Assembly (NCBI GenBank): GCA_964465205.1
Contig: CAYXJO010000003.1
Location: 14,693 to 78,692 of the forward strand
Direction: 5' to 3'
Source of the DNA: an uncultured Gammaproteobacteria bacterium
Lineage (GTDB): Bacteria; Patescibacteriota; Patescibacteriia; Magasanikbacterales; GWA2-37-8
Length of the DNA: 64,000 nt
The position numbers and the translations under genes were made by a program. Positions 3,001 to 52,839 of the stretch are shown in pieces; the first letter of the stretch is position 1, and each line of letters opens with the position of its first letter. Under the pieces are notes generated by a model, which saw only the letters and a list, made by a program, of their open reading frames with translations, was not told the DNA's origin and did no database searches.

Positions 3001-4620
3001 AACGAAGCCTGCGACAGTGTAGTTAGTGGTGTGAATAAAAATGGCATTGCTTGCACGCCAGAATATGGCAAGACTTGCAGTTATTGTTCTGCTGATTGTA
3101 AAAACAGAATTGATGTTCAACCAACGGAATACTGTGGTGACGGTAAATTACAATCCGGTAAAGAACAATGCGATGGCGATATCGGTTCTTGTATTGCTAC
3201 CAGTAGTATAAATGGAATTAATAATGTACCTAAATTACAAGTGTGTAACAATAATTGTCGCGTAGCCAGAGAAATTGCTCCTAATGCTTTTGGTAGGTAT
3301 TTTTTCAATAGTGAGACAGATAACCCGGTCAATGTAAATATTGGAGATTCCGGATCTACAGAAATGACTGTGGCGGGATGGTTTCGATTTGCGCCAGATT
3401 CACAGTCCGGTGGATTGGTGTTGGAGCGTAATATTGGTAGTGATAAATATATTAAGATTTATTTCGATGTCAGTCCGAGCAATAAATTACAAGTGAAAGT
3501 TCAAACTTGCGGAGACACTGGTAGTTATAGTGGTTGCGACATGACCTTACCGGGAATTTTTGGTGCGGAACCACTTAAACCAAGTGATTGGAATTTTATA
3601 GCTTTGCGTTTTAAAGCACCACTTGATTTTGTTTATACTCTAAACACGAATGATCCAATAGAGCAAGTGTCGTATTCAGTTATGGCAAAGTTAGTCACAG
3701 GTCAAGACTCGAATCTAATCCAAGGGAAACCTCCACTTTTAGTACGTTTGAGTCCTTATAAAATTAATGGTAGTGGTAGCATGGAATTTTTGGATTACGA
3801 TTCCGGTGCTCTCGCCGGTGCTACCGGCAGATGGAAAATATCAGGTGCTAATGCAGATGAATTCCATGGCCAAATTAGAAATTTGATGGTTTGGAACAGC
3901 TTGCAAACAGATGAGGAACTGCAGAATCTTTATCGTGCCGGTTTAGCGGATTGTGGTAACCCACCGCCAACTATGCCGCCCGCACCTCGTTGTCAACCAA
4001 CTTGTTCCGGTAGAAGTTGTGGTGCCGATGGTTGTGGTGGAAGTTGTGGTAGTTGTTCTGTTGCCAACACTACTTGTAGTCCTGCCGGTAATTGTGTTTG
4101 TGAACCAGAAACACCTGCTGAATTTTGTACTACTCACAATAGCCCGTGTAATGGCCTCACCGCTCTAAATCGTTGTAGCCAACAAATGACGGTAGCTAGT
4201 TGCGCTGCGCCGTGTAATAACAGTGTGGTTGGTAATAATACAATAGAAGGGGGCGAGGAGTGTGATGATGGTAATACTATAAGTGGTGATGGTTGCTCTA
4301 GTAGTGGAAAAATTGAATCCGGTTATGAATGTCCGCCGGTGGCGGGGAGTTGTAGAAAAAAATGTGGCAATGGCGCAACTGACCCGGGTGAAATTTGTGA
4401 TATTAAAAGCGGCTGTGGAGGTGGAACGGCTAGTGTGTGTTCAGCGTTGGGTGGTTGGTTAAGTACCCACAGTTCGTGGAATATTTACGGCAATGGATTG
4501 GGTTGGAGATGTGATGTTATGAGTGATAATTGCCAGCGTTGCAATACCACTTGTTCTGGAACTGATGCCACTTGTAGTACCGACGATGATGGTGTGACAT
4601 TTAATTGTGTTAATAACTAA
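1..4620 (+). CDS. Large secreted cysteine-rich repeat protein, 5'-truncated by window edge (ORF open to position 1). Contains at least 6 CGNG/CGDG...E.CD (Myxococcus-type cysteine-rich repeat, DUF4215-like) modules and two LamG/ConA-like lectin-fold segments
   Basis: 1536-codon open frame running off the 5' edge. Repeated motifs CGNGVLEPGEACDQG, CGDGIVQPEFGEECDGN, CGNGVVESNEACDS, CGDGKLQSGKEQCDGD, GGEECDDGNTISGDGCSS, CGNGATDPGEICD. LamG-like segments (LTYMAWVYPTG...WQHIAVVYD...FFYKNGG and MTVAGWFRF...WNFIALRF). Many Cys and N-x-S/T sites. Confidence 0.6.
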   Translation, partial: AGNLPFLRPAVQSNASMFDSNNGVCSLTGSYCDDTVSVLSQCKAQFTIQNNTYFASSTQNICYGKKSGTTTYFIGLNNSPLFCSDRNTCSNDAGFARWKQAGEYTDYGCDIPTNKVLPTCIVRAQPIKRFLFTNQKNNDVIGIQVFPNPKVLSVEQWFNNDKTLGGQGFSGRMQTLTLDGFRAVRDNNNIYVDVFNVSSDNDVYNKKFFSNIILFSINADAQSETRQVFEQMLGNLRFNTNLTNYGYCENNVEQFGASTTCKTDFDCPRGQVCANQKIKVQRNYQRLRDLKDISVVLGQYFNANNRYPSLSSGSYLPGQTLSTWPAWTAFSNAVNYALNPDPINKMPIVGTCSVTRGKICTGDSSLNDDVVCPTGEHCIIHEPNTGWSTVDRRFSFACHPSSSVYRYMFNTSTAGFEVRAHLEEPFATLGPLRGFSYWSLFKQNYFGSDWSKFIIDGANGACITGEEISTVTQGSCGDGQVNLGKGEQCDPPGAKQYNTDACATGGANASVKTCQSNCTWSSAANIPCSGLVRTCGNGVLEPGEACDQGRFNGTYNHCNSACTGFENNTNGRCGDAIAQEKNEICDIMKPRTSGGLGICSDGTKKGEYCANDAECQSTVNNGVGVCKTPNVVGVRYGKTKTESCNFDCQSRGPYCGDGIVQPEFGEECDGNQSCTTWDGNPGRRYCLPNCKQKITLPANLAAWWQLDDAKPLAGTAPDYTKYKFYSTKVNPDGSTVLDDTNNNIYAISEINNNVIDFDNHASVVISPKLPIRKPGYLGSGYDATNYSYEFGSETFASTTLEIDQSENGNDGRSLTYMAWVYPTGLENIRRQVFSADLGGFGWSLLSSNEGAPAGFNTWQFFNNGDGRINTGMKVDVGYWQHIAVVYDRQQGKVFFYKNGGADPNSSTAFSGSISYRPYTNSSGYRYNTTKQYLHLGINADRRWWYERMSGRFDEMMVFNRAVTQSEIEQYVRDGAWKCEPLTPPTSTPTPSKCGNGVVESNEACDSVVSGVNKNGIACTPEYGKTCSYCSADCKNRIDVQPTEYCGDGKLQSGKEQCDGDIGSCIATSSINGINNVPKLQVCNNNCRVAREIAPNAFGRYFFNSETDNPVNVNIGDSGSTEMTVAGWFRFAPDSQSGGLVLERNIGSDKYIKIYFDVSPSNKLQVKVQTCGDTGSYSGCDMTLPGIFGAEPLKPSDWNFIALRFKAPLDFVYTLNTNDPIEQVSYSVMAKLVTGQDSNLIQGKPPLLVRLSPYKINGSGSMEFLDYDSGALAGATGRWKISGANADEFHGQIRNLMVWNSLQTDEELQNLYRAGLADCGNPPPTMPPAPRCQPTCSGRSCGADGCGGSCGSCSVANTTCSPAGNCVCEPETPAEFCTTHNSPCNGLTALNRCSQQMTVASCAAPCNNSVVGNNTIEGGEECDDGNTISGDGCSSSGKIESGYECPPVAGSCRKKCGNGATDPGEICDIKSGCGGGTASVCSALGGWLSTHSSWNIYGNGLGWRCDVMSDNCQRCNTTCSGTDATCSTDDDGVTFNCVNN

Positions 4621-12765: not shown

Positions 12766-14016
12766 TTATTTTAGTGTTGGATACAGAGGAAATTTGGCAG
12801 TGAGTTCTACGACTCGCTTTTTTATTTCCGCTAATTTTTCTTGGTTTTCAAAATTGGAAATAGCCTCGTCGATCCAACTGGCGATGGTGGTCATTTCGGT
12901 CTCTTTCATACCGCGCGTAGTGAGGGCGGGTGTGCCCAGGCGAATGCCGGACGGATCCATAGGGCTACGCGGATCATCAGGGATCATATTTTTGTTCACA
13001 GTAATACCAGCCAAATCAAGCGCGTGTTCGGCTTGTTTGCCAGATACATTTTTGCTACTAAATACATCAATTAGAAGCAGGTGATTATCGGTACCACCAA
13101 AACACAGTTTGTATCCCAATTTGTTGAATTCTGTTTCTAGTGCTTTGGCGTTTAATTTTATTTGTTTGGCATAATCTTTGAATTCTGGCTCAAGCGCTTC
13201 TTTGAAGGCCACCGCTTTGGCAGCGATGTTATTTTCGTGGGGGCCACCTTGGAAACCAGGGAACACGGACTTGTCTATTGCTTTGGCGAATTTTTCTTTG
13301 CACATAATCATGCCGCCGCGCGGACCACGCAAAGTTTTGTGGGTAGTAGTAGTAACGACGTCAAAAATCGGTACTGGATTGTTCATCTGTCCACCGGCTA
13401 TGAGCCCGGCAATATGCGCGATGTCTGCCATAGTAATAGCACCCACCTCGTCGGCGATTTTTTGAATAGCCGCATATTCAATTTCGCGTGAATAAGCGCT
13501 GTAACCTACCAGTATCATTTTGGGCTTGTATTCTAGTGCCATGGCGCGCAAATTGTCGAGATCAACTAGTCCTTGGGCATTAGTTTTGTAACGGATAAAC
13601 TTGAACACTTTGGTCATGTGAGTGACTGGATGCCCGTGGGATAAGTGTCCGCCGTGCGATAAATCCATGCCGAGAATAGTGTCGCCCGGTTCGAGTAAGG
13701 CGAAATACACCGCGATGTTGGCTGGTGCCCCCGAGAGCGGTTGGACGTTTACATGTTCAGCACCAAAAATTTGTTTTACTCTATCAATACACAGCTGTTC
13801 CACTTCGTCGATAAATTCACAGCCGCCATAATATCTTTTGCCTGGATAACCTTCGGAATATTTGTTGGTGAGTATCGATCCCAATGCCTCGAGTACGGCT
13901 GGAGATACAAAATTTTCAGAAGGGATCATTTCCAACCCTTCCTCTTGGCGTTTTTGCTCCCGTTTTATCGAGGCGTAAATATCCGGATCAAAGTCTGTTA
14001 GTTTTTGATTATGCAT
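12766..14016 (-). CDS. glyA: Serine hydroxymethyltransferase
   Basis: [41 protein letters not shown]-lysine region [14 protein letters not shown]. Confidence 0.95.
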
Positions 14017-14045
14017 AGTTTTTTAAATTTATTAGATTAGTGGGT

Positions 14046-14074
14046 ATTTTAGCGCAGGGTATAATTTTTGTCCA
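14046..14074 (-). promoter_or_regulatory. Candidate glyA promoter (minus strand TGGACA-17-TAAAAT)
   Basis: On minus strand: TGGACA, 17-nt spacer, TAAAAT ~25 nt upstream of glyA ATG. Overlaps a TTGACATTGTGTCAA palindrome at 14084-14098. Confidence 0.35.
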
Positions 14075-14118
14075 CACAACGATTTGACATTGTGTCAATA
14101 CTGCATTAATATGTGAAA

Positions 14119-14590
14119 GCTCTTTGTTTTTGATTCGTGTTTTGGGTACTAAACCATCTATCGGGAAGGAATTGGGCCAACCAATGCGACACACCAGAAA
14201 GGGTTTTTCAATCGGCGGCGGCACGTTCGTGAAAAAGAGCGTCTTGTACGCTCTAGAGCGGCGTGGGGTTCTGCGCAACCAGGGGATGCCGTTTCGGCAA
14301 AAGATTGCCATCACTCGGCAGTTGCTGCACGGGAGCGTAGAGGTACCGGTCACCGCTTTTCGGCGGGGCGACGACTATCAACGCCAGTGGCCCGGTACGG
14401 TCTATCTGTACAACCCCACCAAGGGTGTCTGTTTTGCTCTCGTGCCCGACCAGAATCTGGTGCCGGCGTGTTTCACGCCCAGGTTTACCCGGGAATTCGC
14501 CGCCAACTTCACCCCGGACATGCAAAAACAGCGCTGAAAGAAAGGAGACAACTACGCGAGGGGGCCTACGGGCCCTCTTTTATTTTTTGA
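14119..14590. ncRNA. GC-rich (~58% GC) anomalous island of uncertain nature, bounded on the plus strand by a strong sigma-70 promoter (TTGACA 14084-14089, 17 nt, TAATAT 14107-14112) and an intrinsic terminator (GAGGGGGCC-TAC-GGGCCCTC + T-run, 14561-14590). Either a structured ncRNA (weak ordered resemblance to RNase P RNA blocks on the minus strand) or a horizontally acquired basic 117-137-aa protein gene (plus-strand ORF 14124..14537)
   Basis: Abrupt GC jump in an AT-rich genome. Long ORFs open in several frames on both strands. Many local hairpins (CGTGTTTCACG, GAGCGTCTTGTACGCTC, GGTACCGG...CCGGTAC). Minus-strand reading shows GUCCGGGG, GGGUAAACCUGGG, CGUG-AAA-CACG, CCAG, ACGAGAGCAAAAC, GCAGAACCCC in rnpB-like order. 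It lacks the GGAAAG J3/4, a P4 partner and the GGUAAGAGCGCACC block. A minus-strand hairpin+U5 lies at 14231-14254. Confidence 0.35.
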
Positions 14591-14615
14591 TTAATTATAG
14601 TATAGTGTTTGCACT

Positions 14616-16394
14616 ATGGCGATACTTTTGACTATCGAAAATTTAAATAAGGCCTATGGCACTCGCATTATTTTCGAGAACGCGGATTTAGCGGTACAAG
14701 AAAAGCAAAAAATCGGCGTGATTGGTCGTAATGGCGCGGGCAAATCTACTTTATTGCGCATGATAGTGGGCGAAGAAGAATGTGATAGTGGGCAAATTAC
14801 CAAACATGATATTATGAGTTTGGGTTATTTGCGCCAACATGATGATTGCGGTATCGAGGAAACCGTGCAAGATTATTTGGAGCGGGTAACTGGTCGCGAA
14901 TCTTGGCATTGTGCCAAAATTGCCGGCCGGTTTGAAATGAAAGGCGAGATGTTGGATCAAAAGGTCTCTGCGCTTTCCGGTGGGTATCTAATGCGTGTCA
15001 AGCTCGCCATGATGTTGCTCACGGAACCAAATTTATTTTTATTGGATGAGCCGACCAATTATTTGGATGTTCATACTCAATTATTGCTGGAAAAGTTTTT
15101 GCGTAGTTACAATGGTGCGTTTATTATTGTCTCGCACGATCGTGAATTTCTCAAACGCACTTGTACCGAGACGTTGGATGTCGAAAATGGTAAATTGTTT
15201 TTTTATCCTCGTCCTATCGATGAATATTTGGCGTACAAAGAAGAGCGTTTGGCGTTTGCGAAATTGTATAATAAAAATATCGAGCGCGAACAAAAACATT
15301 TGCAAACGTTTGTGGATAGATTTCGCTACAAAGCATCCAAAGCCAAACAAGCGCAAAGTAAAATCAAAGCGATTGAGCGTTTGGAAAAGATTGATATCAG
15401 TAGCCCGCTCGCCAATGTGCGGATAGATATTCCGGGAGTGGAAGCGAAAAAAGGTTGTATAGTGCGTTGTGTGGATGTGGTGATTGGTTATCCCAATAAG
15501 ACCGTGGCGCAGAATATCAATTTGGAAATCGACCGCGGCGAACACGTGGGTATTATTGGCGATAATGGCGAAGGCAAGACCACCTTTCTCAAGACCTTGG
15601 CTGATGCTTTGCCAGTGATATCTGGTGTGGTGAAATGGGCGCCCGACACCCGCATTGCGTATTACGCTCAACACGTGGCCAGTGAACTTAGCCCCACCGA
15701 GAAAGTTTGGGCGTATTTGCGTCGCACAGCCGCGCGCGACATTAACGACGAAGAGGTGTTGCGTATGGCCGGTAATTTTTTGTTCCGCGATCATGAATTG
15801 GAAAAAGATATTGCGGTGCTTTCGGGTGGTGAGCGTTCGCGATTATGTTTGGCCGGCTTACTGCTCACCAAAAGTAATGTGATATTACTTGACGAACCTT
15901 CAAATCATTTGGACTTTGAAACCGTCGAGGCACTGGGTCGTGCTCTCGAAAATTTTGTTGGTACGGTATTTTTTGTCAGTCACAATCGTACTTTTGTAAA
16001 TTCGCTCGCATCGGTGATTATCGAAGTGAAGGGTGGGATGGTGAAAAAATATCCTGGTACATATGAGGATTATGTTTACGCACTCGAACAGTCGGTAGAA
16101 CGCGGGGGTGAAGCTGAATCAAACGGCGTCAAAAATATTGCGGTGGCAATGCCAACGTCGTCTGTGCCGACAAAATCATCCAGCCCCGAAGACTCTGATA
16201 AAGTTACCAAGAAAAAGATCAAAAAGATTGAAGATGAATTGGCTGAATTAGAAAAATTACAACAAATTTTATTTAAGAAGCAACAAAAAAATCCGGCCAA
16301 ATTTTTGCCGGATGATTATAAACGTTTGGGAGAAATTGGTGACGAGATAAAAATCAAAGAAGAGGAGTGGGCACAACTCCACGAAGGGTTATAG
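14616..16394 (+). CDS. ABC-F family ATPase (tandem ABC domains, no TM; EttA/Uup-like translation factor)
   Basis: Two Walker A (GRNGAGKST, GDNGEGKTT), two ABC signatures (LSGGYLMRVKLA, LSGGERSRLCLA), two Walker B (LLLDEPTNYLD, ILLDEPSNHLD), C-terminal K/E-rich coiled coil. Confidence 0.85.
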   Translation: MAILLTIENLNKAYGTRIIFENADLAVQEKQKIGVIGRNGAGKSTLLRMIVGEEECDSGQITKHDIMSLGYLRQHDDCGIEETVQDYLERVTGRESWHCAKIAGRFEMKGEMLDQKVSALSGGYLMRVKLAMMLLTEPNLFLLDEPTNYLDVHTQLLLEKFLRSYNGAFIIVSHDREFLKRTCTETLDVENGKLFFYPRPIDEYLAYKEERLAFAKLYNKNIEREQKHLQTFVDRFRYKASKAKQAQSKIKAIERLEKIDISSPLANVRIDIPGVEAKKGCIVRCVDVVIGYPNKTVAQNINLEIDRGEHVGIIGDNGEGKTTFLKTLADALPVISGVVKWAPDTRIAYYAQHVASELSPTEKVWAYLRRTAARDINDEEVLRMAGNFLFRDHELEKDIAVLSGGERSRLCLAGLLLTKSNVILLDEPSNHLDFETVEALGRALENFVGTVFFVSHNRTFVNSLASVIIEVKGGMVKKYPGTYEDYVYALEQSVERGGEAESNGVKNIAVAMPTSSVPTKSSSPEDSDKVTKKKIKKIEDELAELEKLQQILFKKQQKNPAKFLPDDYKRLGEIGDEIKIKEEEWAQLHEGL

Positions 16395-17978
16395 GCTTTT
16401 TACCATATAGCCGTTTTCGAGTCGGTATCCCATTTTTTGGTAATAACCACGTACACCCACGCCAGATATCACGGCGATTTTTTTTATTTTATTTTTTACA
16501 CAAATACTTTCGGCTTTTTTGAGTAAAGCTTTTCCCATGCCGGTGTGCTGCACTTCGCCGGTGCCGGCAATCGGAATCATCTGGCCATAGGTGTGCAGTT
16601 CGCGGATAAATGCCGGATAAATAGCTTGAATACTTTTTGGGTTCAAGCGCAAACGACAAAAAGCGAACACGATTTGGCGCTTGGTATCTTCGATACTCAA
16701 AAAGTGTTCAATCCCATCGGAGGCGCTGTATTTATCATCAAATAATTTTAATTTTATTTTTTTCGGATCAAAATTTTGATGACCGGCTTCACGACAGCGC
16801 AGGCAATGGCATTTCAATTTCTCCGCCGTCATTTGAGTCTGAATGGTTTGACGTAAATTGGTCACCAGATTGCCGGCTTGGATGTGGTGAGAGGGGATAT
16901 CGCGAATGAGGCGTGAAATACGCACATAGCGCGGCACTGTGGTTTTGAATTTTTTTAATACGTCAATGAGATTTTTATCGGAGTAGGGTTGGTATTTACC
17001 GGCACGGAGCCAATCGTACAGTTCGGAATTTTTTACCACTGTGCAAGGATAAATTTTGATCATATCCGGACGATAGGCAGAATTCGAAAAAATTTCTTGC
17101 ATCATTTTTAGATCTTTGGCCGGAGTGCTGCCAGGAAGTTGGGGCATGAGGTGAAAATCCACTTTGAAGCCGTAATTTTTGAGTAGTTCAGTGGCCCGTG
17201 TAACTGTCGCGGCGTCGTGTCCACGTTTTATAGTTTTCAAAATTTTGTTATCGATAGTTTGGACGCCAAGCTCAAGGCGGGTGCAACCAAGTGCGCGCAT
17301 GACCAGAATATTTTTTTCATTGATGTAGTCCGGACGGGTTTCGAGCGTGAGTCCGATGATACGATGGCGCGCATTTTCGTTTTTCTTTTGGGCCGCCAGT
17401 AGTTTCTTTTTTAGTGTGTCGATTTTTTCATTCGGTTTGGTTTGGGCGCGCGACAAATTACATGCTTCAAAGCAGCGTAAGATAAACCAATATTGGTAGG
17501 TGAGGGGATAAAAATTCCAGGTGCCACCTTTGATAATCAGTTCGATTTTATCGGTCGGGTGGCCGTTTTGGGCCAGTGTTTGCAGGCGTCGTAGCGTCTG
17601 CTCGTAGGGGTCAAATTTGAGCGCTAGGGCACGTGCGGCGGCTGGCTCGTCGGATAGGTAACTTTTAGGCATTCGGGCCTCTGTAGGGCAATATACGCAG
17701 TTTCCAGGGCATCCATAGGGCTTGGTGAGGTTGGTGATAATAGCCACTCCCGAGAGAGTGCGGACGGCCCGCTTAGTAAGGGATTTTTCCAGTGCTGGCA
17801 TGGGTTTTATCTTGCCGGATTTTACTAATTTATGGTATGCTTTGAGCAGGTCAGATTTGGCAATATCGCGGTCGAATTTTTGCCCACGCAAAATATCGCG
17901 ACGGATAGTGTCCAGGTCGCGTTTGGGGTTTTTGATACAAGCAAAAATAATTTGTTCAGCAATATGAATCATAAACAA
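16389..17978 (-). CDS. elp3: Elp3-family protein: radical SAM domain fused to C-terminal GNAT acetyltransferase (tRNA wobble uridine cm5U-type modification enzyme)
   Basis: Radical-SAM motif YGCPGNCVYCP. ~530 aa. C-terminal GNAT core QHTGMGKALLKKAE. Characteristic Elp3 segment DKIELIIKGGTWNFYP. TTG at 17978 or ATG at 17972. Confidence 0.8.
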   Translation of the reverse strand: MFMIHIAEQIIFACIKNPKRDLDTIRRDILRGQKFDRDIAKSDLLKAYHKLVKSGKIKPMPALEKSLTKRAVRTLSGVAIITNLTKPYGCPGNCVYCPTEARMPKSYLSDEPAAARALALKFDPYEQTLRRLQTLAQNGHPTDKIELIIKGGTWNFYPLTYQYWFILRCFEACNLSRAQTKPNEKIDTLKKKLLAAQKKNENARHRIIGLTLETRPDYINEKNILVMRALGCTRLELGVQTIDNKILKTIKRGHDAATVTRATELLKNYGFKVDFHLMPQLPGSTPAKDLKMMQEIFSNSAYRPDMIKIYPCTVVKNSELYDWLRAGKYQPYSDKNLIDVLKKFKTTVPRYVRISRLIRDIPSHHIQAGNLVTNLRQTIQTQMTAEKLKCHCLRCREAGHQNFDPKKIKLKLFDDKYSASDGIEHFLSIEDTKRQIVFAFCRLRLNPKSIQAIYPAFIRELHTYGQMIPIAGTGEVQHTGMGKALLKKAESICVKNKIKKIAVISGVGVRGYYQKMGYRLENGYMVKSL

Positions 17979-20904: not shown

Positions 20905-20978
20905 GGGTGTTTAGCTCAGTTGGTTAGAGCATCGCGTTTACATCGCGAGGGTCGAGGGTTCGAGCCCCCCAACACCCA
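20905..20978 (+). tRNA. tRNA-Val (anticodon TAC)
   Basis: Cloverleaf. Acceptor GGGTGTT/AACACCC. D-arm AGCTCAGTTGGTTAGAGC. Anticodon stem TCGCG/CGCGA with loop TTTACAT. T-arm GAGGG-TTCGAGC-CCCCC (one A-C mismatch). CCA not encoded. Confidence 0.88.
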
Positions 20979-31661: not shown

Positions 31662-34157
31662 ATGTGGTCAAGGAGGAAAAATATTTTTCAAATTTTTTGG
31701 TTAGCAATTTTAGCAGGCTCGGCTTGGATTATTCCGGGCCGAGTTTTGGCTTATGATACCAATGTCGCCCACCCAAATATTGCCGAACTGGCAGCTCAAA
31801 TATATAATGAACGATTTCCAAATCAACAGTTGAGTCTGGCGGATATGGAAAATATTAAGCTCGGAGCGCGGCTGGAAGATGTGCCTACTCGGTGGTATCA
31901 GCATTTCTATGACCCCATACACGGCCGCGGTATTTGGTTCAATGACAACAAACAAACCGCCTTGAGCTGGGCCACTGATCCATTTGCTCAAGTGAATTTT
32001 TCATTGGGAGATAATAGTTGGCAAAGAGCCATTAGTGATTGGCAAAAAGGGGATAGGGCACTAGCTATGCAAGAATTGGGTCACACCATTCATCTAATCT
32101 CTGATATGGCGGTGCCGGCACACACACGCGACGATATTCATCCGGCCGGCGATTCATATGAACAGTATGTGAAAAACAATTGGTCGAGCGCGGTTGCGGG
32201 TTTGCGTTATGACTTCCGAAGTTTGAATAGCTTAAATACCGCTTTTTATGCTTTGGCCAAATATTCCAATGGTAACTTTTATAGTGATGATACGATTGAG
32301 CATTGGAATTATAAAATAATTAATATCTCTGGTCATGACAGAAAATATTTTAATAAAAGAAATTATTTGTTCGCCAAAACTGCCGACGGTCATTATTTGT
32401 ATGGTTTTGAAAATTTGATTTGGACGGCTAGCATTAAAGATGTTAGGTATGACGAGATTCTCAACAGCTATGCCTCCCGCCTTATCCCACAAGCTGTGGG
32501 TTATAGTGCCGGAATGATAGATTTATTTTTTCGAGAAGCCACCAAAAAACAAACAGAAAAACTACCTTGGTTGCGCTCCAATTTATCTGGTGTAGTAGAT
32601 ACCGCCGGCGGTGCGGCTCTTACTGCGGCCGAAGGGGCCAAGGATTGGCTTGTCGGCTCCAATGTGTGGGGAGAGGGTGTGCAACAAATTGGCGAAGATG
32701 CACTACGTCAAGTGGATATTACCATGACTGAAAAGGCCCAAATAGCGCGAGGCGAAATTCCACCCGCTACGCCGCCCATATCCGATTCGCCTATAGCAGC
32801 CACAGATTCTGTTTCTACTCCCACGCCATCAAACAGGCCTGCTGTAACTACCACCACCATTGTAGCCACTCCTATTACTTCGACTCCAATATATACTGGC
32901 GGTGGCAGTGCGTATGGCGGTGGCAATGTGCCTGTTCCCGAATCTGAGCCAACCTCTACAATACCTACCTCCACACCACCCACCGATCCCCCCACTTCTA
33001 CGCCGATTACTACCTCTACTCCTAGCCCGACCTCTACCCCTGAAGTGCCCACACCCACCTCTACCCCCACTTCTACGCCAGAGACTCCTACCACAACCCC
33101 AGAAACCCCTACCAGCACCCCAGGCACTCCTACTACCACTCCAGACGATACACCACCTGCCATGCCCACAATTATACTCGCTACACCAGACGCTAGCCGT
33201 CCGATAGTGCAAATTTCAGTCACTTCCACGGACGCTTCGTCTTCGCCGGTCGCATTTGATATTGTTTATACCACTGCACTGTCCCCACTAGATACCGATT
33301 GGAAGCCATTTATAGTCAGTAGTACCGCCACCGTACACAATTTCACTGCTCGGCGCGGATTGATTTATCAATTTCGCGCTCGTGCTATTGATCAAGTCGG
33401 CAATGTTTCAGATTTTTCCAAAATTGCGAGTACCACCTTTGATCAAATTAGTCTAAATGGCACGCAAAGCGAATCCGAACGTGTTTTGACTGCCGAAAAT
33501 AGTCCGTATTTAATAAACGGTAATCAGTGTTATATTATTCCGGCTGGCACCAAACTTACCATTGAAGCGGGGGTGGAAATCAAGATTGGCAAATATCTTT
33601 GTATAATGGTGAATGGTATTTTGGATGCCCAGGGTGATAGTGATGCGCATATTACTTTCTCTCAGCTTAACCCGGGTGAATATTGGGCGCAGATATTTTT
33701 GAATTCCGCTACCGCAACTTTTAATTATGCTGATATTACGGGTGGCGATACAGGTGGGTTATTTGTTTGGAAGCGGGGATTGGTATTTGCAGATAATAAT
33801 TCCTATTTGGAATTAAACAATTCTACTGTTGACGACTTGTATGAAATGGCCGGTGCCGCGGTTGGTGCCAAAGATTCAGTGGTCAAAATACGTGATAGTG
33901 TTTTGGCGGACACCGGCATATCTTCCAATTGTGGTAATAACGTTTGTAATCACGGTATCCGAGCTGGTGGCGGAACATTATATTTGGATAATGTGCTGCT
34001 TCGCAATGTGGTATATGGTATACGCGCCGGCTTACCCGGGTACCAGTCGTATCCTGTGGTATATTCAAACAACTTTTCCAGCATTATGGGCGAGAATATC
34101 GGAGTTTTATTTATGCCGGATAATGAGTATTTTATCCGCACTTCTACTCCTGTTTGA
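31662..34157 (+). CDS. Secreted multidomain protein: N-terminal zinc-dependent phospholipase C / P1-nuclease-like domain, long Thr/Pro/Ser-rich linker, FN3-like segment and C-terminal right-handed beta-helix-like region
   Basis: Signal peptide. WYQHFYDP and ELGHTIHLISDMAVPAHTRDD resemble the HFYDP and L..H..D...P.H zinc-ligand motifs of Bacillus PLC. (TP)n linker at aa ~367-505. NNSYLELNNSTV / GGDTGGLF beta-helix-like repeats. Confidence 0.5.
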   Translation: MWSRRKNIFQIFWLAILAGSAWIIPGRVLAYDTNVAHPNIAELAAQIYNERFPNQQLSLADMENIKLGARLEDVPTRWYQHFYDPIHGRGIWFNDNKQTALSWATDPFAQVNFSLGDNSWQRAISDWQKGDRALAMQELGHTIHLISDMAVPAHTRDDIHPAGDSYEQYVKNNWSSAVAGLRYDFRSLNSLNTAFYALAKYSNGNFYSDDTIEHWNYKIINISGHDRKYFNKRNYLFAKTADGHYLYGFENLIWTASIKDVRYDEILNSYASRLIPQAVGYSAGMIDLFFREATKKQTEKLPWLRSNLSGVVDTAGGAALTAAEGAKDWLVGSNVWGEGVQQIGEDALRQVDITMTEKAQIARGEIPPATPPISDSPIAATDSVSTPTPSNRPAVTTTTIVATPITSTPIYTGGGSAYGGGNVPVPESEPTSTIPTSTPPTDPPTSTPITTSTPSPTSTPEVPTPTSTPTSTPETPTTTPETPTSTPGTPTTTPDDTPPAMPTIILATPDASRPIVQISVTSTDASSSPVAFDIVYTTALSPLDTDWKPFIVSSTATVHNFTARRGLIYQFRARAIDQVGNVSDFSKIASTTFDQISLNGTQSESERVLTAENSPYLINGNQCYIIPAGTKLTIEAGVEIKIGKYLCIMVNGILDAQGDSDAHITFSQLNPGEYWAQIFLNSATATFNYADITGGDTGGLFVWKRGLVFADNNSYLELNNSTVDDLYEMAGAAVGAKDSVVKIRDSVLADTGISSNCGNNVCNHGIRAGGGTLYLDNVLLRNVVYGIRAGLPGYQSYPVVYSNNFSSIMGENIGVLFMPDNEYFIRTSTPV
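32760..33180 (+). repeat. Low-complexity Thr/Pro/Ser-rich coding repeat (TSTP/TPET units) within the PLC-like gene; generates spurious antisense ORFs
   Basis: Translation TSTPITTSTPSPTSTPEVPTPTSTPTSTPETPTTTPETPTSTPGTPTTTP. Locally GC-rich. Confidence 0.7.
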
Positions 34158-34308: not shown

Positions 34309-36393
34309 ATGCGCAAAACCCTCGAACAGGTGGTAAAAATTTTAATTTACGCCACTTTTTTTGTACCACTAATTGTGGTACCGTCGTCGTTTATTTTTCC
34401 GTTTATTGTACCGAAAATTCTAATGTTTAGATCGCTGGTGGAAATTATGTTGGGGGCTTATGTCCTGCTACTAATTATCAATTGGCAAGAATACAAGCCG
34501 CGATTTACCGCGCTCAACTTGACTTTGGCCGCATTTTTACTCAGTTTTGCGCTTTCGACTTTTTTTGGGGTTGATCCGTATCATAGTTTTTGGGATAATC
34601 ACGAACGTATGTTGGGGTTGTTTACCATTATTCACTGTGTGATATATTATTTCATTTGTACCGCCATGTTTCGCACTTGGGCCGATTGGAAATGGGCGTT
34701 GCGCGGGTTTCTCTTGGCCGGTGCGGCCGTGATGTTTGTGGCTTTTATGCAAACCCAGAATCCCAATCTTTTATTGGGTCAGGGATCGTCGCGTACTGCT
34801 AGTACGTTGGGCAACCCAATTTATGTGGGTGGCTATGGGTTGTTTTTGACATTTGTAGCGTTTTTGTTGGCCATACGCGAGAAAAATAATGTCTGGCGAG
34901 CAGTAGAAATAGTTTTGGGACTGTTGGCATTCTTGGCGATTTTTTGGAGTGGCACGCGTGGTTCGCTATTGGGATTTGTGGCGGGTGCGGCGGTAGCGGT
35001 ATTGGGTTATATAGTAGTGCTCAAAGAACACAAAAAAATTCGTTGGAGTCTGATAGGCATTGCGATTTTGGGAGTAGTAGCGATTGGTTTATTATATGGA
35101 TTTCGCAAAACCGAATTTGTTACCAATTTGCCGGCAGTGGGGCGTACGGTCAACACTTCTTTGGCCGATGTGCAGGCCAGTCCGCGTTGGATTGCTTGGA
35201 CGATTGCAATCCAGAGTTGGAAAGATATGCCGATTTTTGGTTGGGGTCCGAATAATTTTTTCTATGCATTCAATGATCACTATAATCCGCGCTCGTTGGA
35301 TTTTGGATATGGCGAAACTTGGTTTGATAACGCCCACAATATTATTGTAAATACCTTGGCGGTGCAGGGGACATTTGGTATTCTCACTTATTTGGCTGTT
35401 TTTGTCATCGGAGTGTTATCGCTCATCTTAGCCTGGCGTAAATTTGGACTTAATTTCCATATTGCGGTAGTTGGTTCGGCGTTTTTGGTAGCACACTTAG
35501 TGGGCAATATTACTGTGTTTGAAAATCCAACATCATATTTGTATTTCATGTTTTGGCTGGCATTTCTAAATAGTGTGGCGAATCCGCGTGAACAAAAAAA
35601 CGCGGAAGTAGAGGACAAAACCAAAAAAGTAGTGGCTAAATCCGCAGCGCCAGATCGCAAGATTGGTGCCGGGGCGATCTCCGGGGTAGGGGTGGTAGTA
35701 ATGATTTTTGTGTTTGTGTTTAATATCCAACCGGCGCGAGCTAATATGATGACATTGGACGCGATTCGTTATCTATCTCAAGACGTGATTTTGGCCGTAC
35801 CAGCGATGAAAACCGCTCTGGAGTTCAATTCTCCGCATATTGATGATATTCGAGCAGATATTGGCCGTACCGCGGCCCAGACATTGGGAGCGGCATATCA
35901 GAAATTAGGCAAAGATCGTAGTAATGAGATACTGCAGATCGCTTATGATAATTTAAAGAAAAATTTAATTTTGCATCCTTTGGATATTCGCAATCAGCTG
36001 ACTTTGGCGCAACTCGCGCAACTTGGCGCAGTGATTAACCAGAATATTAATTTTATCTTGGATGCAGAGAAATTTTTGGATGATGCCCAGGTCAAATCTC
36101 CACGTCGCCAGCAGGTAGCTTATGCTTTGGCCGGAGTGAAAATGCAATTAGGTAAAAATGCCGAAGCGTTTAAAATTTTAGAACAGACCATTACCGACAA
36201 TCCGCGCGTTGCCGAGAGTTATTGGCGGCTAGCTTATGCATATAAGGTGTTGGGCAATCAGGTAAAAGCCGTGGAGGTTCTTAATTTGGCGAACAAAAAC
36301 GGCGTGGTATTTGGCGAACAGGATCAAGGGATAGTGTCTCAGATACTTGCACCCACGCCCAGTTCTTCTGCGGCGGTGAAGATCAATAAGTAA
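34309..36393 (+). CDS. O-antigen ligase/polymerase-like (Wzy_C) polytopic membrane protein with C-terminal TPR repeats
   Basis: ~12 TM N-terminal domain (FWSGTRGSLLGF Wzy_C-like loop). C-terminal soluble TPR-like helices (AYALAGVKMQLGKNAEAFKILEQTITDNPRVAESYWRLAYAYKVLGN). Confidence 0.65.
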   Translation: MRKTLEQVVKILIYATFFVPLIVVPSSFIFPFIVPKILMFRSLVEIMLGAYVLLLIINWQEYKPRFTALNLTLAAFLLSFALSTFFGVDPYHSFWDNHERMLGLFTIIHCVIYYFICTAMFRTWADWKWALRGFLLAGAAVMFVAFMQTQNPNLLLGQGSSRTASTLGNPIYVGGYGLFLTFVAFLLAIREKNNVWRAVEIVLGLLAFLAIFWSGTRGSLLGFVAGAAVAVLGYIVVLKEHKKIRWSLIGIAILGVVAIGLLYGFRKTEFVTNLPAVGRTVNTSLADVQASPRWIAWTIAIQSWKDMPIFGWGPNNFFYAFNDHYNPRSLDFGYGETWFDNAHNIIVNTLAVQGTFGILTYLAVFVIGVLSLILAWRKFGLNFHIAVVGSAFLVAHLVGNITVFENPTSYLYFMFWLAFLNSVANPREQKNAEVEDKTKKVVAKSAAPDRKIGAGAISGVGVVVMIFVFVFNIQPARANMMTLDAIRYLSQDVILAVPAMKTALEFNSPHIDDIRADIGRTAAQTLGAAYQKLGKDRSNEILQIAYDNLKKNLILHPLDIRNQLTLAQLAQLGAVINQNINFILDAEKFLDDAQVKSPRRQQVAYALAGVKMQLGKNAEAFKILEQTITDNPRVAESYWRLAYAYKVLGNQVKAVEVLNLANKNGVVFGEQDQGIVSQILAPTPSSSAAVKINK

Positions 36394-36409
36394 ATTGTAG
36401 CACCTACAT

Positions 36410-37126
36410 ATGTTTTTTTCAGTCGTAATCCCGGTGTACAACGAGGAGCGACGTATACCCAGAAGCATTGATCAGATTTTTGATTTTTTTGCCGGTTTTA
36501 CTGACCACCGAATAGAAATAATTTTTGTGAACGACGGATCGTCTGATCAAACTGCCAAGGTATTACAAGATTACCAAACGAAATATAAATTCAAAGTTAT
36601 TGATTACACAGTGAATCGCGGCAAGGGTTACGCTGTAAAACAAGGGGCGTTGGCCGCTGGTGGTGATTGGATAATATTTTTTGATATTGATTTGGCTACT
36701 CCCTTGAATGAGTTCAATCATTTATTGCAGTTTATGAAATCAGACGACCGACTAATTATTGGTAGTCGTCGTTTGGGTGAATCGAAAATTGAAAAAAGTG
36801 AATCAAGTATCCGAGTGTTTTTGGGTCAGGGTTTCACCAAGTTGTCCAATATTTTGGTGCCCGGCATTACCGATTTCACTTGTGGTTTCAAATGTTTTTC
36901 TCGGCAAGCGGCGCAAACTATTTTTCCTTTGGCGCGAATTGATCGTTGGGGTTTTGACACGGAATTATTGTATATAGCCAAACTAAAGAAGTTGTCTATA
37001 CGTCAAATGCCGGTAGCTTGGGCACATGACAATGATTCACGAGTTAATGTAATTAAAGCCGTGATCAGTTCGTTTCGCGAATTGTGTCAGATGAAGTGGA
37101 ATCAAATCAAGGGTTTGTATAAATAA
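36410..37126 (+). CDS. GT2 glycosyltransferase, dolichol/polyprenol-phosphate sugar synthase (DPM1/GtrB-like)
   Basis: VVIPVYNEERRI, FVNDGSSDQT (DxD region), 238 aa soluble GT-A. Confidence 0.8.
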   Translation: MFFSVVIPVYNEERRIPRSIDQIFDFFAGFTDHRIEIIFVNDGSSDQTAKVLQDYQTKYKFKVIDYTVNRGKGYAVKQGALAAGGDWIIFFDIDLATPLNEFNHLLQFMKSDDRLIIGSRRLGESKIEKSESSIRVFLGQGFTKLSNILVPGITDFTCGFKCFSRQAAQTIFPLARIDRWGFDTELLYIAKLKKLSIRQMPVAWAHDNDSRVNVIKAVISSFRELCQMKWNQIKGLYK

Positions 37127-37132
37127 GTTTTT

Positions 37133-38650
37133 ATGGAAAGATTATCATTAAAACAAAAAATGATTTATACTGGTTTGGCGGGGTGGATGGTTGCTCTATG
37201 TTGGACTGTGGTTTGTTTCTGGACTACCCCAGCCAATAATTGTAGTATTTTTTCTCGTTTGAATTTGAGCCATCATCCAATATCGGTATTTTTTTTGCCG
37301 GTATTTTTTATTTTGTTGAGTTTTAGTTCTTATTACGCCTATGTTTTATTTGCCTCTGGTAAAACGAATGAATATAACGATAGCACGCTTGCAAAGAAAC
37401 TTGTTAACGTATTTCCGTTTTTAGTTATTGTTCTGGCTTTAATCATTCCAACGTTTAATAATTACGATTTTAGTTTTTATTTCAATTCCGGCAAGTTTAT
37501 GGCCACAAATAATCTGCATATTTATAACAGCAGTTGGCCAACTGTAAATTATTTCTTTTGTCCATTATTTGACGCCAATGTAGTATCGGGTTATATGTAT
37601 GGTCCGTTAATTGGCTTATTACTGTATGGTTTGTTCTTGACCGCCGGAGGAAAATTTTTATTTTTCTATATTATTTGGAAACTCCTGATGTTAGCTGGTT
37701 TGATTTTTTGTATTTTTTTAACAAAGCGAATCATCGAGATTGTTCACCCTGGTTATTTTACTGCAAAAAAAGATTCCTTATTATGGCTTTGGATTTCTCA
37801 GCCTCTAATTATGTGGGAATGGGTTGCTAGCGGACATTTTGAATCTGTTTGGTTGCCGTTTTTGCTCGCGGCGGTATTTTTTTCATTGCGTAGAAAGTGG
37901 TGGTTGGTATTTGTGTTTCTTACCATAGGCGCATGGTTAAAATTTTTACCGATCTTGATAGCACCATGGTTCGTTCTTTGGTGGTGGCAAGACACTAACA
38001 AAGCAAATTACAAGACAAATGTAATTCATGTGTTGATAGCGCTCGCTTGTTCGTTTTTAATAACAATCATGTCTTGGGCTCCGTTTTGGGAGGGGGTTTC
38101 AACGATCCATCCGATACAGATGCAGACGAAATGGGCAGTTAACAGTTTATTCTCTTCTACTTATTATTCAATACGACCATTATTCGATAAGATCTTTCTA
38201 ATCAACCCCCACTGGTACTTGACCAGACTGCTCCATTTTTCACTGCTTGTATTGGTGGTATATTTATTGTACCCATTAATTAAGAAAGCCTTGGCAGTTT
38301 TGATTCGTAAATCGTTTTTAAGTCCAACAGATTATATCAACGCCATTTTTATTACGTTCTTTGTTTATTTATCTGTTTGGCAAAAATCTTTTTGGCCATG
38401 GTATGTTTCGTGGCTGCTGCCTTTTGGTTTTATTTTGTTGACTGAGATTAGGTCGAAAGCATTCTTTCGTTTGTTGGTTTGGTTGAGCATATGCCCGTTA
38501 TATTTATATGTTGTTTGGATGGTGGGTGGTATTCCGTTTCCGTCAGAAAAGCTTTGGCTCCAATGGCTTTTGATGTTATTGAGTTGGCTGGTTCCATTTA
38601 TTTTTTTCTTGAAATGGAGAAAAGAGGGCTACAATCTTAATAATTTATAA
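37133..38650 (+). CDS. Polytopic membrane protein, probable GT-C fold glycosyltransferase (partner of upstream GT2)
   Basis: 505 aa, >10 TM, aromatic-rich. Immediately downstream of DPM1-like GT2. Confidence 0.45.
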   Translation: MERLSLKQKMIYTGLAGWMVALCWTVVCFWTTPANNCSIFSRLNLSHHPISVFFLPVFFILLSFSSYYAYVLFASGKTNEYNDSTLAKKLVNVFPFLVIVLALIIPTFNNYDFSFYFNSGKFMATNNLHIYNSSWPTVNYFFCPLFDANVVSGYMYGPLIGLLLYGLFLTAGGKFLFFYIIWKLLMLAGLIFCIFLTKRIIEIVHPGYFTAKKDSLLWLWISQPLIMWEWVASGHFESVWLPFLLAAVFFSLRRKWWLVFVFLTIGAWLKFLPILIAPWFVLWWWQDTNKANYKTNVIHVLIALACSFLITIMSWAPFWEGVSTIHPIQMQTKWAVNSLFSSTYYSIRPLFDKIFLINPHWYLTRLLHFSLLVLVVYLLYPLIKKALAVLIRKSFLSPTDYINAIFITFFVYLSVWQKSFWPWYVSWLLPFGFILLTEIRSKAFFRLLVWLSICPLYLYVVWMVGGIPFPSEKLWLQWLLMLLSWLVPFIFFLKWRKEGYNLNNL

Positions 38651-38655
38651 GTTTT

Positions 38656-39459
38656 ATGATAACTAGTGATGTTATCATTAATTTACGTAAGAGGTGTTTG
38701 TTTGTGATTAGACAAATTTATCGTTTGTTGATAATTTTTCCGTTTTTAATAGTTGTGCAAATAATTCACATATTGACTAATTATTTCTGTAAAAAAAATA
38801 CAACAGAGCCTTTAGTTGACAATTGTTTTGTGGTATCATCGGTGATTTTCCCCCACCCGCGCAGATTGACATATGCGTCTCGGCGCTCAGTTTTTACCCC
38901 CGATCAACGAATTGCACAAACGATTGAAACCGTACTCTCTATTAGGAAATATGCTTCAAGTGCCAAAATAATTTTAGTGGAGGGGGGTATGGTAGGGGAC
39001 TTGCCAAAAACTTTACTGTCTTTGGTTGATGAATACATCTATGTTGGCGGTAAATCGTTGGTGAGGTGGGCTTGTGATAGTTGGTTCAAGAGTTTAGGCG
39101 AGGCCATGATGCTATTGTCCGCTGCCAAACAGATTGAGAAAATCCGTGCCAAATTATATTTTAAAATTAGCGGACGTTATGTTTTGAATGAGCAATTCAA
39201 TCCATCTGATTATGTTATTGAAAAATTTAGTTTTCATTCCATTAGGTCAGATTTTTTTTCTACCAGGTTATATAGTTTTCCCGGTGAACTGTTTAGTATC
39301 TGGACAGTCGCCTTATTGAAAGGTTTGCCATATAATTTGATGGATTATCCAATTGAGCATACTTTGTACAAATTTATACCAAAAAAATTTATTAGTGCGG
39401 TAGCCACTTTGGGGATAGGTGGTTTAGACGCCACCGGAGGGTTAGGGGTGCGTGAATAA
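38656..39459 (+). CDS. Hypothetical protein (N-terminal TM), unknown function, inside glycan island
   Basis: 267-aa ORF, no recognisable motif. Confidence 0.4.
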   Translation: MITSDVIINLRKRCLFVIRQIYRLLIIFPFLIVVQIIHILTNYFCKKNTTEPLVDNCFVVSSVIFPHPRRLTYASRRSVFTPDQRIAQTIETVLSIRKYASSAKIILVEGGMVGDLPKTLLSLVDEYIYVGGKSLVRWACDSWFKSLGEAMMLLSAAKQIEKIRAKLYFKISGRYVLNEQFNPSDYVIEKFSFHSIRSDFFSTRLYSFPGELFSIWTVALLKGLPYNLMDYPIEHTLYKFIPKKFISAVATLGIGGLDATGGLGVRE

Positions 39460-39462
39460 CAT

Positions 39463-40758: not shown

Positions 40759-40764
40759 ATTTAT

Positions 40765-41424: not shown

Positions 41425-41431
41425 TCAAAAT

Positions 41432-42223: not shown

Positions 42224-42237
42224 TATTGTTTGTTATA

Positions 42238-44654: not shown

Positions 44655-44673
44655 CCAGTTTTTTATAATATTT

Positions 44674-47024: not shown

Positions 47025-47026
47025 TT

Positions 47027-48113: not shown

Positions 48114-48161
48114 CCACTGTGGTTTTGTTTATCAATGTTATAATGTAGATTTAAAAAAAAT

Positions 48162-50010: not shown

Positions 50011-50016
50011 TTTTTT

Positions 50017-51467: not shown

Positions 51468-51475
51468 TCGATTAT

Positions 51476-52144: not shown

Positions 52145-52209
52145 ATTTTAAATCAGGAGTTATTTTGCCTGATGCGATTATAATATATAAAATATTTAAG
52201 ACAGTTCAT

Positions 52210-52833: not shown

Positions 52834-52839
52834 TTTTTT

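What the first reader, a model, noticed from the sequence alone, without database searches (positions are those of the whole stretch)
14075..14600. GC-rich 0.45-kb island between glyA and the ABC-F gene with its own promoter and terminator: unidentified structured RNA or foreign small basic protein gene
GC content jumps to ~58% in a ~37% genome. On the plus strand there is a near-consensus promoter (TTGACA-17-TAATAT, 14084-14112). A textbook terminator lies at 14561-14590 and brackets a 137-codon ORF (TTG start; first ATG gives 117 aa, very basic). The sequence is also dense in local hairpins. On the minus strand it shows an ordered series of RNase P RNA-like blocks (GUCCGGGG ... GGGUAAACCUGGG ... 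CGUG-AAA-CACG ... ACCAG ... ACGAGAGCAAAAC ... GCAGAACCCC) ending in a hairpin+U5 (14231-14254). I could not place P3, the GGAAAG junction, the P4 3' strand or the GGUAAGAGCGCACC block. The rnpB identity is therefore unproven. Either answer is interesting: a divergent RNase P RNA, a novel ncRNA, or an HGT-derived gene.
Basis: seen in the sequence. Interest (0 to 1): 0.6.

Follow-up and report, generated by a model that had tools for sequence, protein, structure and literature searches.

The report
Orphan small basic protein gene
The GC-rich island is not an RNase P or other structured RNA but a probably unannotated gene for a 117-residue basic protein. It belongs to a very rare family in candidate-phylum (Magasanikbacteria) genomes, and its predicted fold resembles colicin-D-type RNA-cutting toxins.

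Summary
Window 14176-14575 is the most GC-rich 400 nt of the window (0.59 against a mean of 0.41). The promoter, the terminator and the 137-codon ORF are all present.

The RNA reading fails:
- Three Rfam scans give no RNase P or any other credible family.
- Fold-energy z-scores are ordinary.
- Four orthologous loci share no consensus RNA structure.

The island is a protein gene, CDS 14184-14537 (+), 117 aa, pI 10.7.
- An exhaustive phmmer search finds three homologs (E 2e-16 to 2e-11), and all three alignments begin at or near the first ATG.
- All four genes lie divergently next to glyA, each with its own promoter, Shine-Dalgarno sequence and terminator.
- Identity by codon position is 0.54/0.61/0.34, the signature of coding sequence.

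AlphaFold models of two members (pLDDT 88 and 87) both match colicin D and CdiA-CT tRNase domains best (TM about 0.5). However, the family has no invariant histidine and no neighbouring immunity gene.

The gene diverges 5-12 times faster than its neighbours. Its GC3 exceeds that of flanking genes in all four loci, and this is unexplained.

Verdict: an ordinary kind of object (a small gene) from a new orphan family. RNA-targeting function is inferred, not shown.

The parts
14046..14074 (-). Promoter-like site of glyA (TGGACA-17-TAAAAT), divergent from the small gene's promoter
   Evidence: An equivalent TGGACA-17-TACAAT is readable in L084, L086 and L087.
14084..14112 (+). Sigma-70-type promoter of the small gene (TTGACA-17-TAATAT); the inferred transcription start is near 14119
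   Evidence: The homologous loci carry TTGACT-17/18-TAAGGT/TAGGAT at the same relative place. The transcription start is inferred, not measured.
14164..14171 (+). Shine-Dalgarno-like GGAAGGAA in a 5' UTR of about 65 nt, 12 nt before the ATG
   Evidence: Read. L084 has GGAAGGAAGG 7 nt before its ATG, L086 has GGAGG and L087 has AAGGAGG.
14184..14537 (+). CDS of a 117-aa basic protein (pI 10.7) from an orphan family; stop TGA at 14535-14537
   Evidence: Homologs at E 2.2e-16, 6.0e-15 and 2.2e-11; the two best align from residue 21 of the 137-aa ORF, which is this ATG, and the third from residue 28. 23 invariant columns. Codon-position identity 0.54/0.61/0.34. GC1/2/3 = 0.585/0.453/0.726. AF2 pLDDT 88.1, pTM 0.80.
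14558..14590 (+). Intrinsic terminator (9-bp stem, 6 G-C, loop 4, T-run) ending the monocistronic unit 21 nt after the stop
   Evidence: Comparable G+C hairpin plus T-run after the stop codon in L084, L086 and L087.
14601..14606 (+). Context: -10-like TATAGT of the ABC-F gene's own promoter, 9 nt before its ATG (14616)
   Evidence: Read. The same layout occurs in L081/L084 (TATAAT, 10 nt before the ATG) and L082. Inferred, not measured.
12766..14016 (-). Context: glyA (serine hydroxymethyltransferase), the only neighbour conserved in all four loci
14616..16394 (+). Context: ABC-F ATPase gene, downstream neighbour in the window and L084/L085 only

Best explanation
The island is a monocistronic protein-coding gene.

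Layout: a sigma-70-type promoter (14084-14112) drives an mRNA with a 5' UTR of about 65 nt and a GGAAGGAA ribosome-binding site. Translation starts at ATG 14184 and stops at 14537. An intrinsic terminator (14558-14590) ends the transcript and insulates the downstream ABC-F gene, which has its own -10 box.

Product: a 117-aa, strongly basic protein. Only four members of its family are known, all placed divergently beside glyA in Magasanikbacteria-like genomes.

Inferred function: the protein is predicted with high confidence to adopt an alpha/beta fold with the element order pre-beta, pre-alpha, alpha, beta1-beta4, C-terminal helix. This most resembles the colicin D / CdiA-CT tRNase (BECR) fold. 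I therefore infer that it binds RNA (tRNA, or ribosome-bound RNA) and possibly cleaves it. With no invariant histidine, any catalysis would have to use Lys/Arg/Tyr as RelE does, or the protein may only bind RNA.

The high GC comes from unusual codon usage (GC3 0.73) together with Gly/Ala/Arg/Pro-rich composition, not from RNA structure.

Sub-confidences: protein-coding gene 0.95; BECR-like fold 0.6; actual RNase activity 0.3.
For: Coding:
- phmmer against 1.84 billion representatives gives three homologs of 106-118 aa. The two best align from the first ATG, the third from residue 28 of the 137-aa ORF.
- The alignment has 23 invariant columns.
- All homologs are independently syntenic with glyA.
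- Promoter, SD and terminator recur in all four loci.
- Identity by codon position is 0.537/0.606/0.342; pN 0.44 is below pS 0.71.
- GC3>GC1>GC2 in this frame.

Against an RNA:
- No Rfam family and no tmRNA.
- Ordinary MFE z-scores.
- RNAalifold consensus energy is only -12.8 kcal/mol over 372 columns.

Fold:
- Two AF2 models built with different lead sequences have pLDDT 88.1 and 86.6 and the same order of secondary-structure elements.
- For both, the top nine PDB Foldseek hits are colicin D tRNase domains and CdiA-CT toxins (E 4e-3 to 0.2, prob up to 1.0, TM 0.4-0.56). HigB follows weakly, and colicin E5 appears at rank 33.
- The element order matches the colicin-like and RelE-like topologies described in bioRxiv 10.64898/2026.08.28.747851.
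Against: - No Foldseek hit reaches E<=0.001 against PDB, and TM of about 0.5 is borderline.
- No sequence-profile link to any Pfam, NCBIfam, PHROG or PADLOC family.
- There is no invariant histidine at all, whereas colicin-like members usually carry one in the pre-alpha helix or beta4.
- There is no room for, and no sign of, an adjacent immunity or antitoxin gene in any of the four loci.
- The AF2 alignment has only four sequences.
- The excess GC3 in all four loci is not explained by this model.
- The SD-to-ATG spacing of 12 nt in the window is long.
Confidence: 0.85

Rival explanations
1. A divergent RNase P RNA (rnpB) of about 360 nt is transcribed from the minus strand, from about 14590 to the hairpin+U5 near 14231.
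For: - Short motifs in the right order (GUCCGGGG ... CAGAACCCC), read.
- A minus-strand promoter-like site at 14622-14594.
- A plausible length and high GC.
- No rnpB anywhere else in the 64-kb window.
Against: - No RNase P model (bacterial A or B, archaeal, nuclear) reaches E<=10 in 751-nt or 401-nt searches with lax filters, or the gathering score.
- The minus-strand MFE z-score is -0.31.
- Three of the motif blocks are codons for conserved residues of the plus-strand protein.
- The third-position substitution pattern is that of coding sequence.
- Orthologous loci have no conserved structure.
- The minus-strand promoter and hairpin are not conserved in L084.
Confidence: 0.01
2. A novel structured non-coding RNA, or a cis-regulatory 5' leader or attenuator (promoter ... 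terminator) controlling the downstream ABC-F gene, as in antibiotic-resistance ABC-F leaders.
For: - The promoter, then about 440 nt, then a strong terminator 26 nt before the ABC-F ATG, all on the same strand.
- High GC in a lower-GC genome.
Against: - The ABC-F gene has its own -10 box after the terminator, and this layout is conserved in L084 and L082.
- In L086 and L087 the small gene is present without ABC-F; a Nudix-like gene lies on the other strand.
- The ABC-F homolog in L082 lacks any such leader.
- The region shows the coding signature, an ordinary MFE z-score of -1.31 and no consensus structure.
Confidence: 0.03
3. The window's copy is a recently acquired foreign allele: the resident small gene was replaced in place by a divergent homolog from a higher-GC donor.
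For: - GC3 of 0.726 exceeds every one of the 46 ORFs of at least 200 aa in the window (maximum 0.529).
- The protein is only 40% identical to the syntenic ortholog in L084, whereas the flanking proteins are 83-92% identical.
- The small gene (with ABC-F in two loci) is absent from all 80 representative glyA loci.
Against: - All four family members have raised GC3 relative to their own neighbours, so the bias is a family trait.
- No homolog exists in any higher-GC lineage, plasmid or phage collection.
- The regulatory layout is the same in all four loci.
- The divergence between window and L084 also covers the intergenic region, without a sharp cassette boundary.
Confidence: 0.2
4. The protein is a small DNA-binding regulator of the divergently transcribed glyA gene rather than an RNA-targeting protein.
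For: - Divergent, back-to-back promoters with glyA in 4 of 4 loci, while the other neighbour varies between ABC-F and Nudix.
- The protein is strongly basic.
Against: - No helix-turn-helix, ribbon-helix-helix or other DNA-binding family is detected.
- Neither PDB fold search returns a DNA-binding protein in the top ranks.
- Most relatives express glyA without this gene.
- A rate of change of dN 0.66 is unusual for a dedicated regulator of a housekeeping gene.
Confidence: 0.12

Closest known systems
Colicin D C-terminal tRNase domain and CdiA-CT(NC101)/CdiA-CT(O32:H37) toxins (colicin-like group of the BECR fold)
   Same: - These are the best structural matches for two independently led AF2 models.
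- Similar size, about 90-110 residues.
- The same order of elements: extra N-terminal beta strands, pre-alpha, core alpha, short beta1, then a beta2-beta4 meander.
- Basic surface charge.
   Different: - No detectable sequence similarity.
- No invariant histidine or KH motif.
- A free-standing cytoplasmic protein, not the C-terminal domain of a secreted toxin.
- No immunity gene next to it.
- An extra helix (residues 62-68) between beta1 and beta2.
- TM is only about 0.45-0.55.
RelE/HigB-type type II toxins (RelE-like group of the BECR fold)
   Same: - Free-standing basic proteins of about 100 aa.
[quoted passage not shown]
- Many lack a catalytic histidine and use Lys/Arg/Tyr. This family has invariant K40, Y74 and Y76 and a conserved basic residue at position 6.
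   Different: - HigB matches are weak (prob 0.1-0.2, rmsd above 8 A).
- No Pfam RelE/ParE/HigB hit.
- No upstream or downstream antitoxin gene.
- The unit is monocistronic, with its own promoter and terminator.
Bacterial RNase P RNA (Rfam RF00010/RF00011)
   Same: Comparable length and GC content; a few short motifs on the minus strand.
   Different: No covariance-model match at any threshold tried. The sequence evolves as a protein-coding gene on the other strand.

Membership tests
Bacterial RNase P RNA (RF00010/RF00011; also RF00373, RF00009) | Match to the family covariance model (P4 pseudoknot strands, CR-I to CR-V, overall helices) | tested here: not met
   No hit at the gathering score on the whole window. 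No hit at E<=10 on 13950-14700 or 14200-14600, both strands.
Bacterial RNase P RNA (RF00010/RF00011; also RF00373, RF00009) | Conservation as RNA: paired positions covary, with no three-base periodicity | tested here: not met
   Identity by codon position is 0.54/0.61/0.34 across four orthologs. RNAalifold gives -12.8 kcal/mol over 372 columns.
Protein-coding gene (generic) | Homologous ORFs of similar length in other genomes, substitutions concentrated at third positions, and start and stop flanked by SD and terminator | tested here: met
   signals read.
BECR-fold ribonucleases, colicin-like group | Core topology pre-alpha + alpha-beta1-beta2-beta3-beta4 | tested here: met
   DSSP order in both AF2 models: E7-10, E14-17, H18-26, H37-49, E52-54, (H62-68), E73-77, E82-87, E92-97. 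This rests on predicted models, not solved structures.
BECR-fold ribonucleases, colicin-like group | Significant structural superposition on solved members | tested here: inconclusive
BECR-fold ribonucleases, colicin-like group | Conserved catalytic histidine (often a K-H pair) on the pre-alpha helix and/or beta4 | tested here: not met
   None of the 23 invariant columns is a histidine. The His in the YLYH motif is Asn in the window protein.
BECR-fold ribonucleases, colicin-like group | Adjacent cognate immunity gene, or fusion to a delivery domain | tested here: not met
   Monocistronic in all four loci. The neighbours are glyA, ABC-F or a Nudix-like gene.
BECR-fold ribonucleases, colicin-like group | Metal-independent RNA cleavage giving a 2',3'-cyclic phosphate | not testable with these tools
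   Needs biochemistry.
RelE/ParE type II toxin-antitoxin toxins | Profile match to RelE/ParE/HigB/YoeB families | tested here: not met
   No Pfam, NCBIfam or PADLOC hit at E<=1 for any of the four members.
RelE/ParE type II toxin-antitoxin toxins | Bicistronic operon with an antitoxin gene | tested here: not met
   The 5' UTR is 40-65 nt and the stop-to-terminator distance 20-40 nt. The antisense open frames are explained by the scarcity of TTA/CTA/TCA codons.
ABC-F 5' leader / attenuator | Leader and ABC-F gene form one transcription unit, and the leader co-occurs with the ABC-F gene | tested here: not met
   A separate -10 box follows the terminator. The small gene occurs without ABC-F in L086 and L087, and ABC-F occurs without it in L082 and L035.

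The most novel reading that the evidence does not exclude
A free-standing colicin-D-like RNase without any immunity partner is kept next to glyA in a few ultra-small CPR bacteria. It diversifies 5-12 times faster than its neighbours and has a distinctive GC3-rich coding style. This would be either a self-limited or ribosome-dependent RNA-cleaving regulator, or an effector used against hosts or competitors, representing a new histidine-less branch of the BECR superfamily.
Probability: 0.15. Interest if true: 0.6.

Novelty: new variant of a known kind. Interest (0 to 1): 0.3.

Why it matters
It removes a false lead: there is no unusual RNase P RNA or new ncRNA here.

It also points to a gene that gene callers probably missed. 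The protein is absent from a 15-billion-protein collection that does contain its neighbour.

If the fold assignment holds, the four-member family would be a new, histidine-less, immunity-less, free-standing relative of colicin D / CdiA-CT tRNases in Patescibacteria. That is of some interest for how RNase toxin folds are recruited to non-conflict or unusual conflict roles in reduced genomes.

The family-wide excess of GC3 together with very fast protein divergence is an unexplained evolutionary pattern that could be followed up. Overall this is a modest finding.

Tried and rejected
RNA searches
- RNase P, tmRNA or any Rfam family: nothing.
- Thermodynamic structure signal: z -1.31 and -0.31. 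Consensus structure of four orthologs: negligible.

First protein searches
- The word-indexed search with the 137-aa ORF found nothing. Only the exhaustive phmmer run found the family.
- P0123, an 834-aa protein with ten tandem repeats matching query residues 78-106, was rejected as a repeat-inflated motif match.

Attempts to enlarge the family all found no new member
- Profile search of 5.8 billion proteins.
- HMM against six-frame ORFs of 80 glyA loci.
- blastn/nhmmer of the island and tblastn of the 137-aa ORF against those loci.
- Degenerate-pattern scans of metagenome and viral contigs.
- A 16-mer from the shared glyA promoter scanned across metagenomes, followed by an HMM search of the 111 loci recovered.
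- tblastn against plasmids and phages.

Other leads
- Staphylococcal nuclease similarity (profile against PDB sequences, E 0.02) was rejected. The order of secondary-structure elements differs, and SNase is absent from the top 50 hits of both PDB Foldseek searches.
- ABC-F leader or attenuator idea: rejected (see rivals).
- An antisense protein gene: the long antisense open frames follow from having only 0-2 TTA/CTA/TCA codons.

Not possible or not informative
- Exact look-ups of the window's own proteins in the contig index returned nothing. The source record's annotation therefore could not be inspected.

Full report
**Observation.**
The window averages 41% GC. The 400-nt stretch 14176-14575 is its most GC-rich part (0.592; mean 0.411, sd 0.053), while the flanking genes are about 44-45% GC. 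So the island is real, but the background is not 37%.

The sigma-70-like promoter TTGACA-17-TAATAT (14084-14112, +) and the intrinsic terminator (stem 14558-14579 plus a T-run) are both found by the consensus scan. The 137-codon ORF 14124-14537 exists. Its first ATG is at 14184. (The sequence ruler labels the first base of each line.)

The claim of unusually dense hairpins does not hold. MFE z-scores against dinucleotide shuffles are -1.31 on the plus strand and -0.31 on the minus strand.

**RNA hypotheses.**
- Rfam 15 at gathering thresholds finds only tRNA-Val (20905-20978) in the whole window.
- Permissive searches (E<=10) of 13950-14700 and 14200-14600 on both strands give only chance-level hits to a Tetrahymena snoRNA, a PreQ1 fragment and a plant miRNA. 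No RNase P model appears.
- ARAGORN finds no tmRNA.
- Three of the 'RNase P-like blocks' on the minus strand are, on the plus strand, codons for conserved residues: G28-V-L, C-F84-A-L-V and P99-R100-F101.

**Organism and synteny.**
glyA relatives place the window in Candidatus Magasanikbacteria (Patescibacteria/CPR), with a best identity of 88%.

In about 80 representative genomes the island has no nucleotide or protein counterpart. In the closest ones glyA directly follows a radical-SAM gene, the homolog of window 16389-17978. Window 14017-16388 (the island plus the ABC-F gene) is therefore extra relative to them.

The ABC-F protein itself is native to the clade, with many Magasanikbacteria homologs at 61-65% identity and one at 83%.

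**The island is a protein gene.**
The word-indexed protein search found nothing. The exhaustive phmmer search of 1.84 billion cluster representatives found three proteins:

| Protein | Length | E-value |
|---|---|---|
| P0121 | 118 aa | 2.2e-16 |
| P0122 | 107 aa | 6.0e-15 |
| P0124 | 106 aa | 2.2e-11 |

P0121 and P0122 align from query residue 21, which is the first ATG; P0124 aligns from residue 28. A fourth hit, a repeat protein, is spurious. The four-way alignment has 23 invariant columns.

The genomic contexts give independent confirmation.
- In L084 (11 kb) the order is glyA(-), small gene(+), ABC-F(+), radical SAM(-), exactly as in the window. glyA is 92% identical; ABC-F is 87% identical in the tblastn alignment over 507 residues and 83% over the full length.
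- L085 repeats this arrangement from another sample.
- In L086 and L087 the small gene again lies divergently beside glyA, but it is followed by a terminator and a Nudix-like gene on the other strand.

All four loci have a TTGAC[AT]-17/18 promoter, a GGAGG-type SD and a G+C hairpin with a T-run after the stop.

Across all pairs, nucleotide identity by codon position is 0.537/0.606/0.342. Between the window and L084, pN is 0.44 against pS 0.71. An RNAalifold consensus of the four genes has only -12.8 kcal/mol over 372 columns.

The terminator does not make the island a leader of ABC-F. A -10 box (TATAGT, 14601-14606) follows the terminator, and this layout is conserved in L084 and L082. The small gene also occurs without ABC-F.

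**What the protein may be.**
It is basic in all four members (pI 9.9-10.7). It matches no Pfam, NCBIfam, PHROG or PADLOC family.

AlphaFold2 on the four-sequence alignment gives a confident model (pLDDT 88.1, pTM 0.80). A second model led by P0122 gives pLDDT 86.6 and the same element order.

Foldseek against the PDB puts the following at ranks 1-9 for both models:
- the colicin D tRNase domain (1tfo, 1v74, 5znm, 1tfk);
- the EF-Tu-dependent CdiA-CT toxin of E. coli NC101 (5i4q, 5i4r);
- CdiA-CT O32:H37 (8ey4).

These hits have E 4e-3 to 0.2, probability 0.57-1.0 and TM 0.4-0.56. HigB toxins follow weakly. Viral-structure matches are uncharacterised phage proteins at similar scores.

The element order is extra N-terminal strands, pre-alpha, alpha, short beta1, beta2-beta4, then a C-terminal helix. 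This matches the colicin-like and RelE-like topologies described in a recent BECR classification (bioRxiv 10.64898/2026.08.28.747851).

The family nevertheless fails two usual features of colicin-like toxins:
- it has no invariant histidine;
- it has no adjacent immunity gene or delivery domain.

I therefore file it as 'works like / looks like' a BECR RNA-targeting protein, not as a demonstrated member. RNase activity is an inference, at about 0.3. A weak sequence-profile hit to staphylococcal nuclease (E 0.02) is discounted.

**Evolutionary oddities (unexplained).**

| Gene (window vs L084) | dN |
|---|---|
| small gene | 0.66 |
| ABC-F | 0.13 |
| radical SAM | 0.10 |
| glyA | 0.055 |

| Locus | GC3 of small gene | GC3 of flanking genes |
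|---|---|---|
| window | 0.726 | 0.45-0.48 |
| L084 | 0.576 | 0.46-0.48 |
| L086 | 0.364 | 0.17-0.30 |
| L087 | 0.604 | 0.435 |

The window value exceeds that of every ORF of at least 200 aa in the window (maximum 0.529).

Because the bias is family-wide and the location is conserved, a one-off import from a distant donor is not the simplest reading. Allelic replacement remains possible (about 0.2).

The window's own protein is absent from the 15-billion-protein collection. No hit above 41% identity was returned, although its neighbour ABC-F is present as P0001. This suggests that gene callers skipped the gene.

**Verdict.**
The feature is real and is now explained as a small monocistronic protein-coding gene of a new, very rare family. 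The RNase P and ncRNA interpretations are refuted. Interest is modest (0.3). It rests on the possible immunity-less, histidine-less colicin-D-like fold and on the unexplained GC3 and evolutionary-rate pattern.

Noticed in passing
window 14596-14618; L084 5140-5170; L082 120-150: The ABC-F gene's -10-like box (TATAGT / TATAAT / TATTCT) lies only 9-10 nt before its ATG, and no Shine-Dalgarno sequence is visible. This suggests a leaderless or near-leaderless ABC-F mRNA conserved in these Magasanikbacteria.
   Followed up: partly
window 14017-16388 versus L001-L007 (about 3330-4000): The small gene plus the ABC-F gene sit between the radical-SAM (ELP3-like) gene and glyA. In most related genomes those two genes are adjacent and co-oriented. 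In L035 (Uhrbacteria) an ABC-F gene (41% identity) lies near glyA, with a different 497-aa gene between them.
   Followed up: partly
window 32745-33200 (inside ORF 31662-34157, +): The second-highest GC peak of the window (0.57-0.60) is a Pro/Thr/Ser-rich low-complexity linker in an 831-aa protein. It is not an RNA or a foreign island.
   Followed up: partly
window 36000-54000: GC falls to 0.33-0.39 here, against 0.42-0.47 in the first half of the window. This is a broad compositional shift that was not examined.
   Followed up: no
L084 4621-4636, L086 148-163, L087 609-624: An identical 16-mer (AGTATTGTATTACGAG) covers the -10 box and spacer of the glyA promoter in the three homologous loci, but it is not present in the window. 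The spacer is unusually conserved for loci whose glyA proteins are 78-92% identical to the window's. It could be an operator.
   Followed up: partly
P0123 (834 aa): A protein made of about ten near-identical repeats of about 80 aa. Its motif NTIYVYSPANGTCPAV resembles the family's conserved TVYLYNPTKGVCFAL. It was judged a repeat-inflated chance match, but the shared beta-hairpin-like motif was not examined.
   Followed up: no
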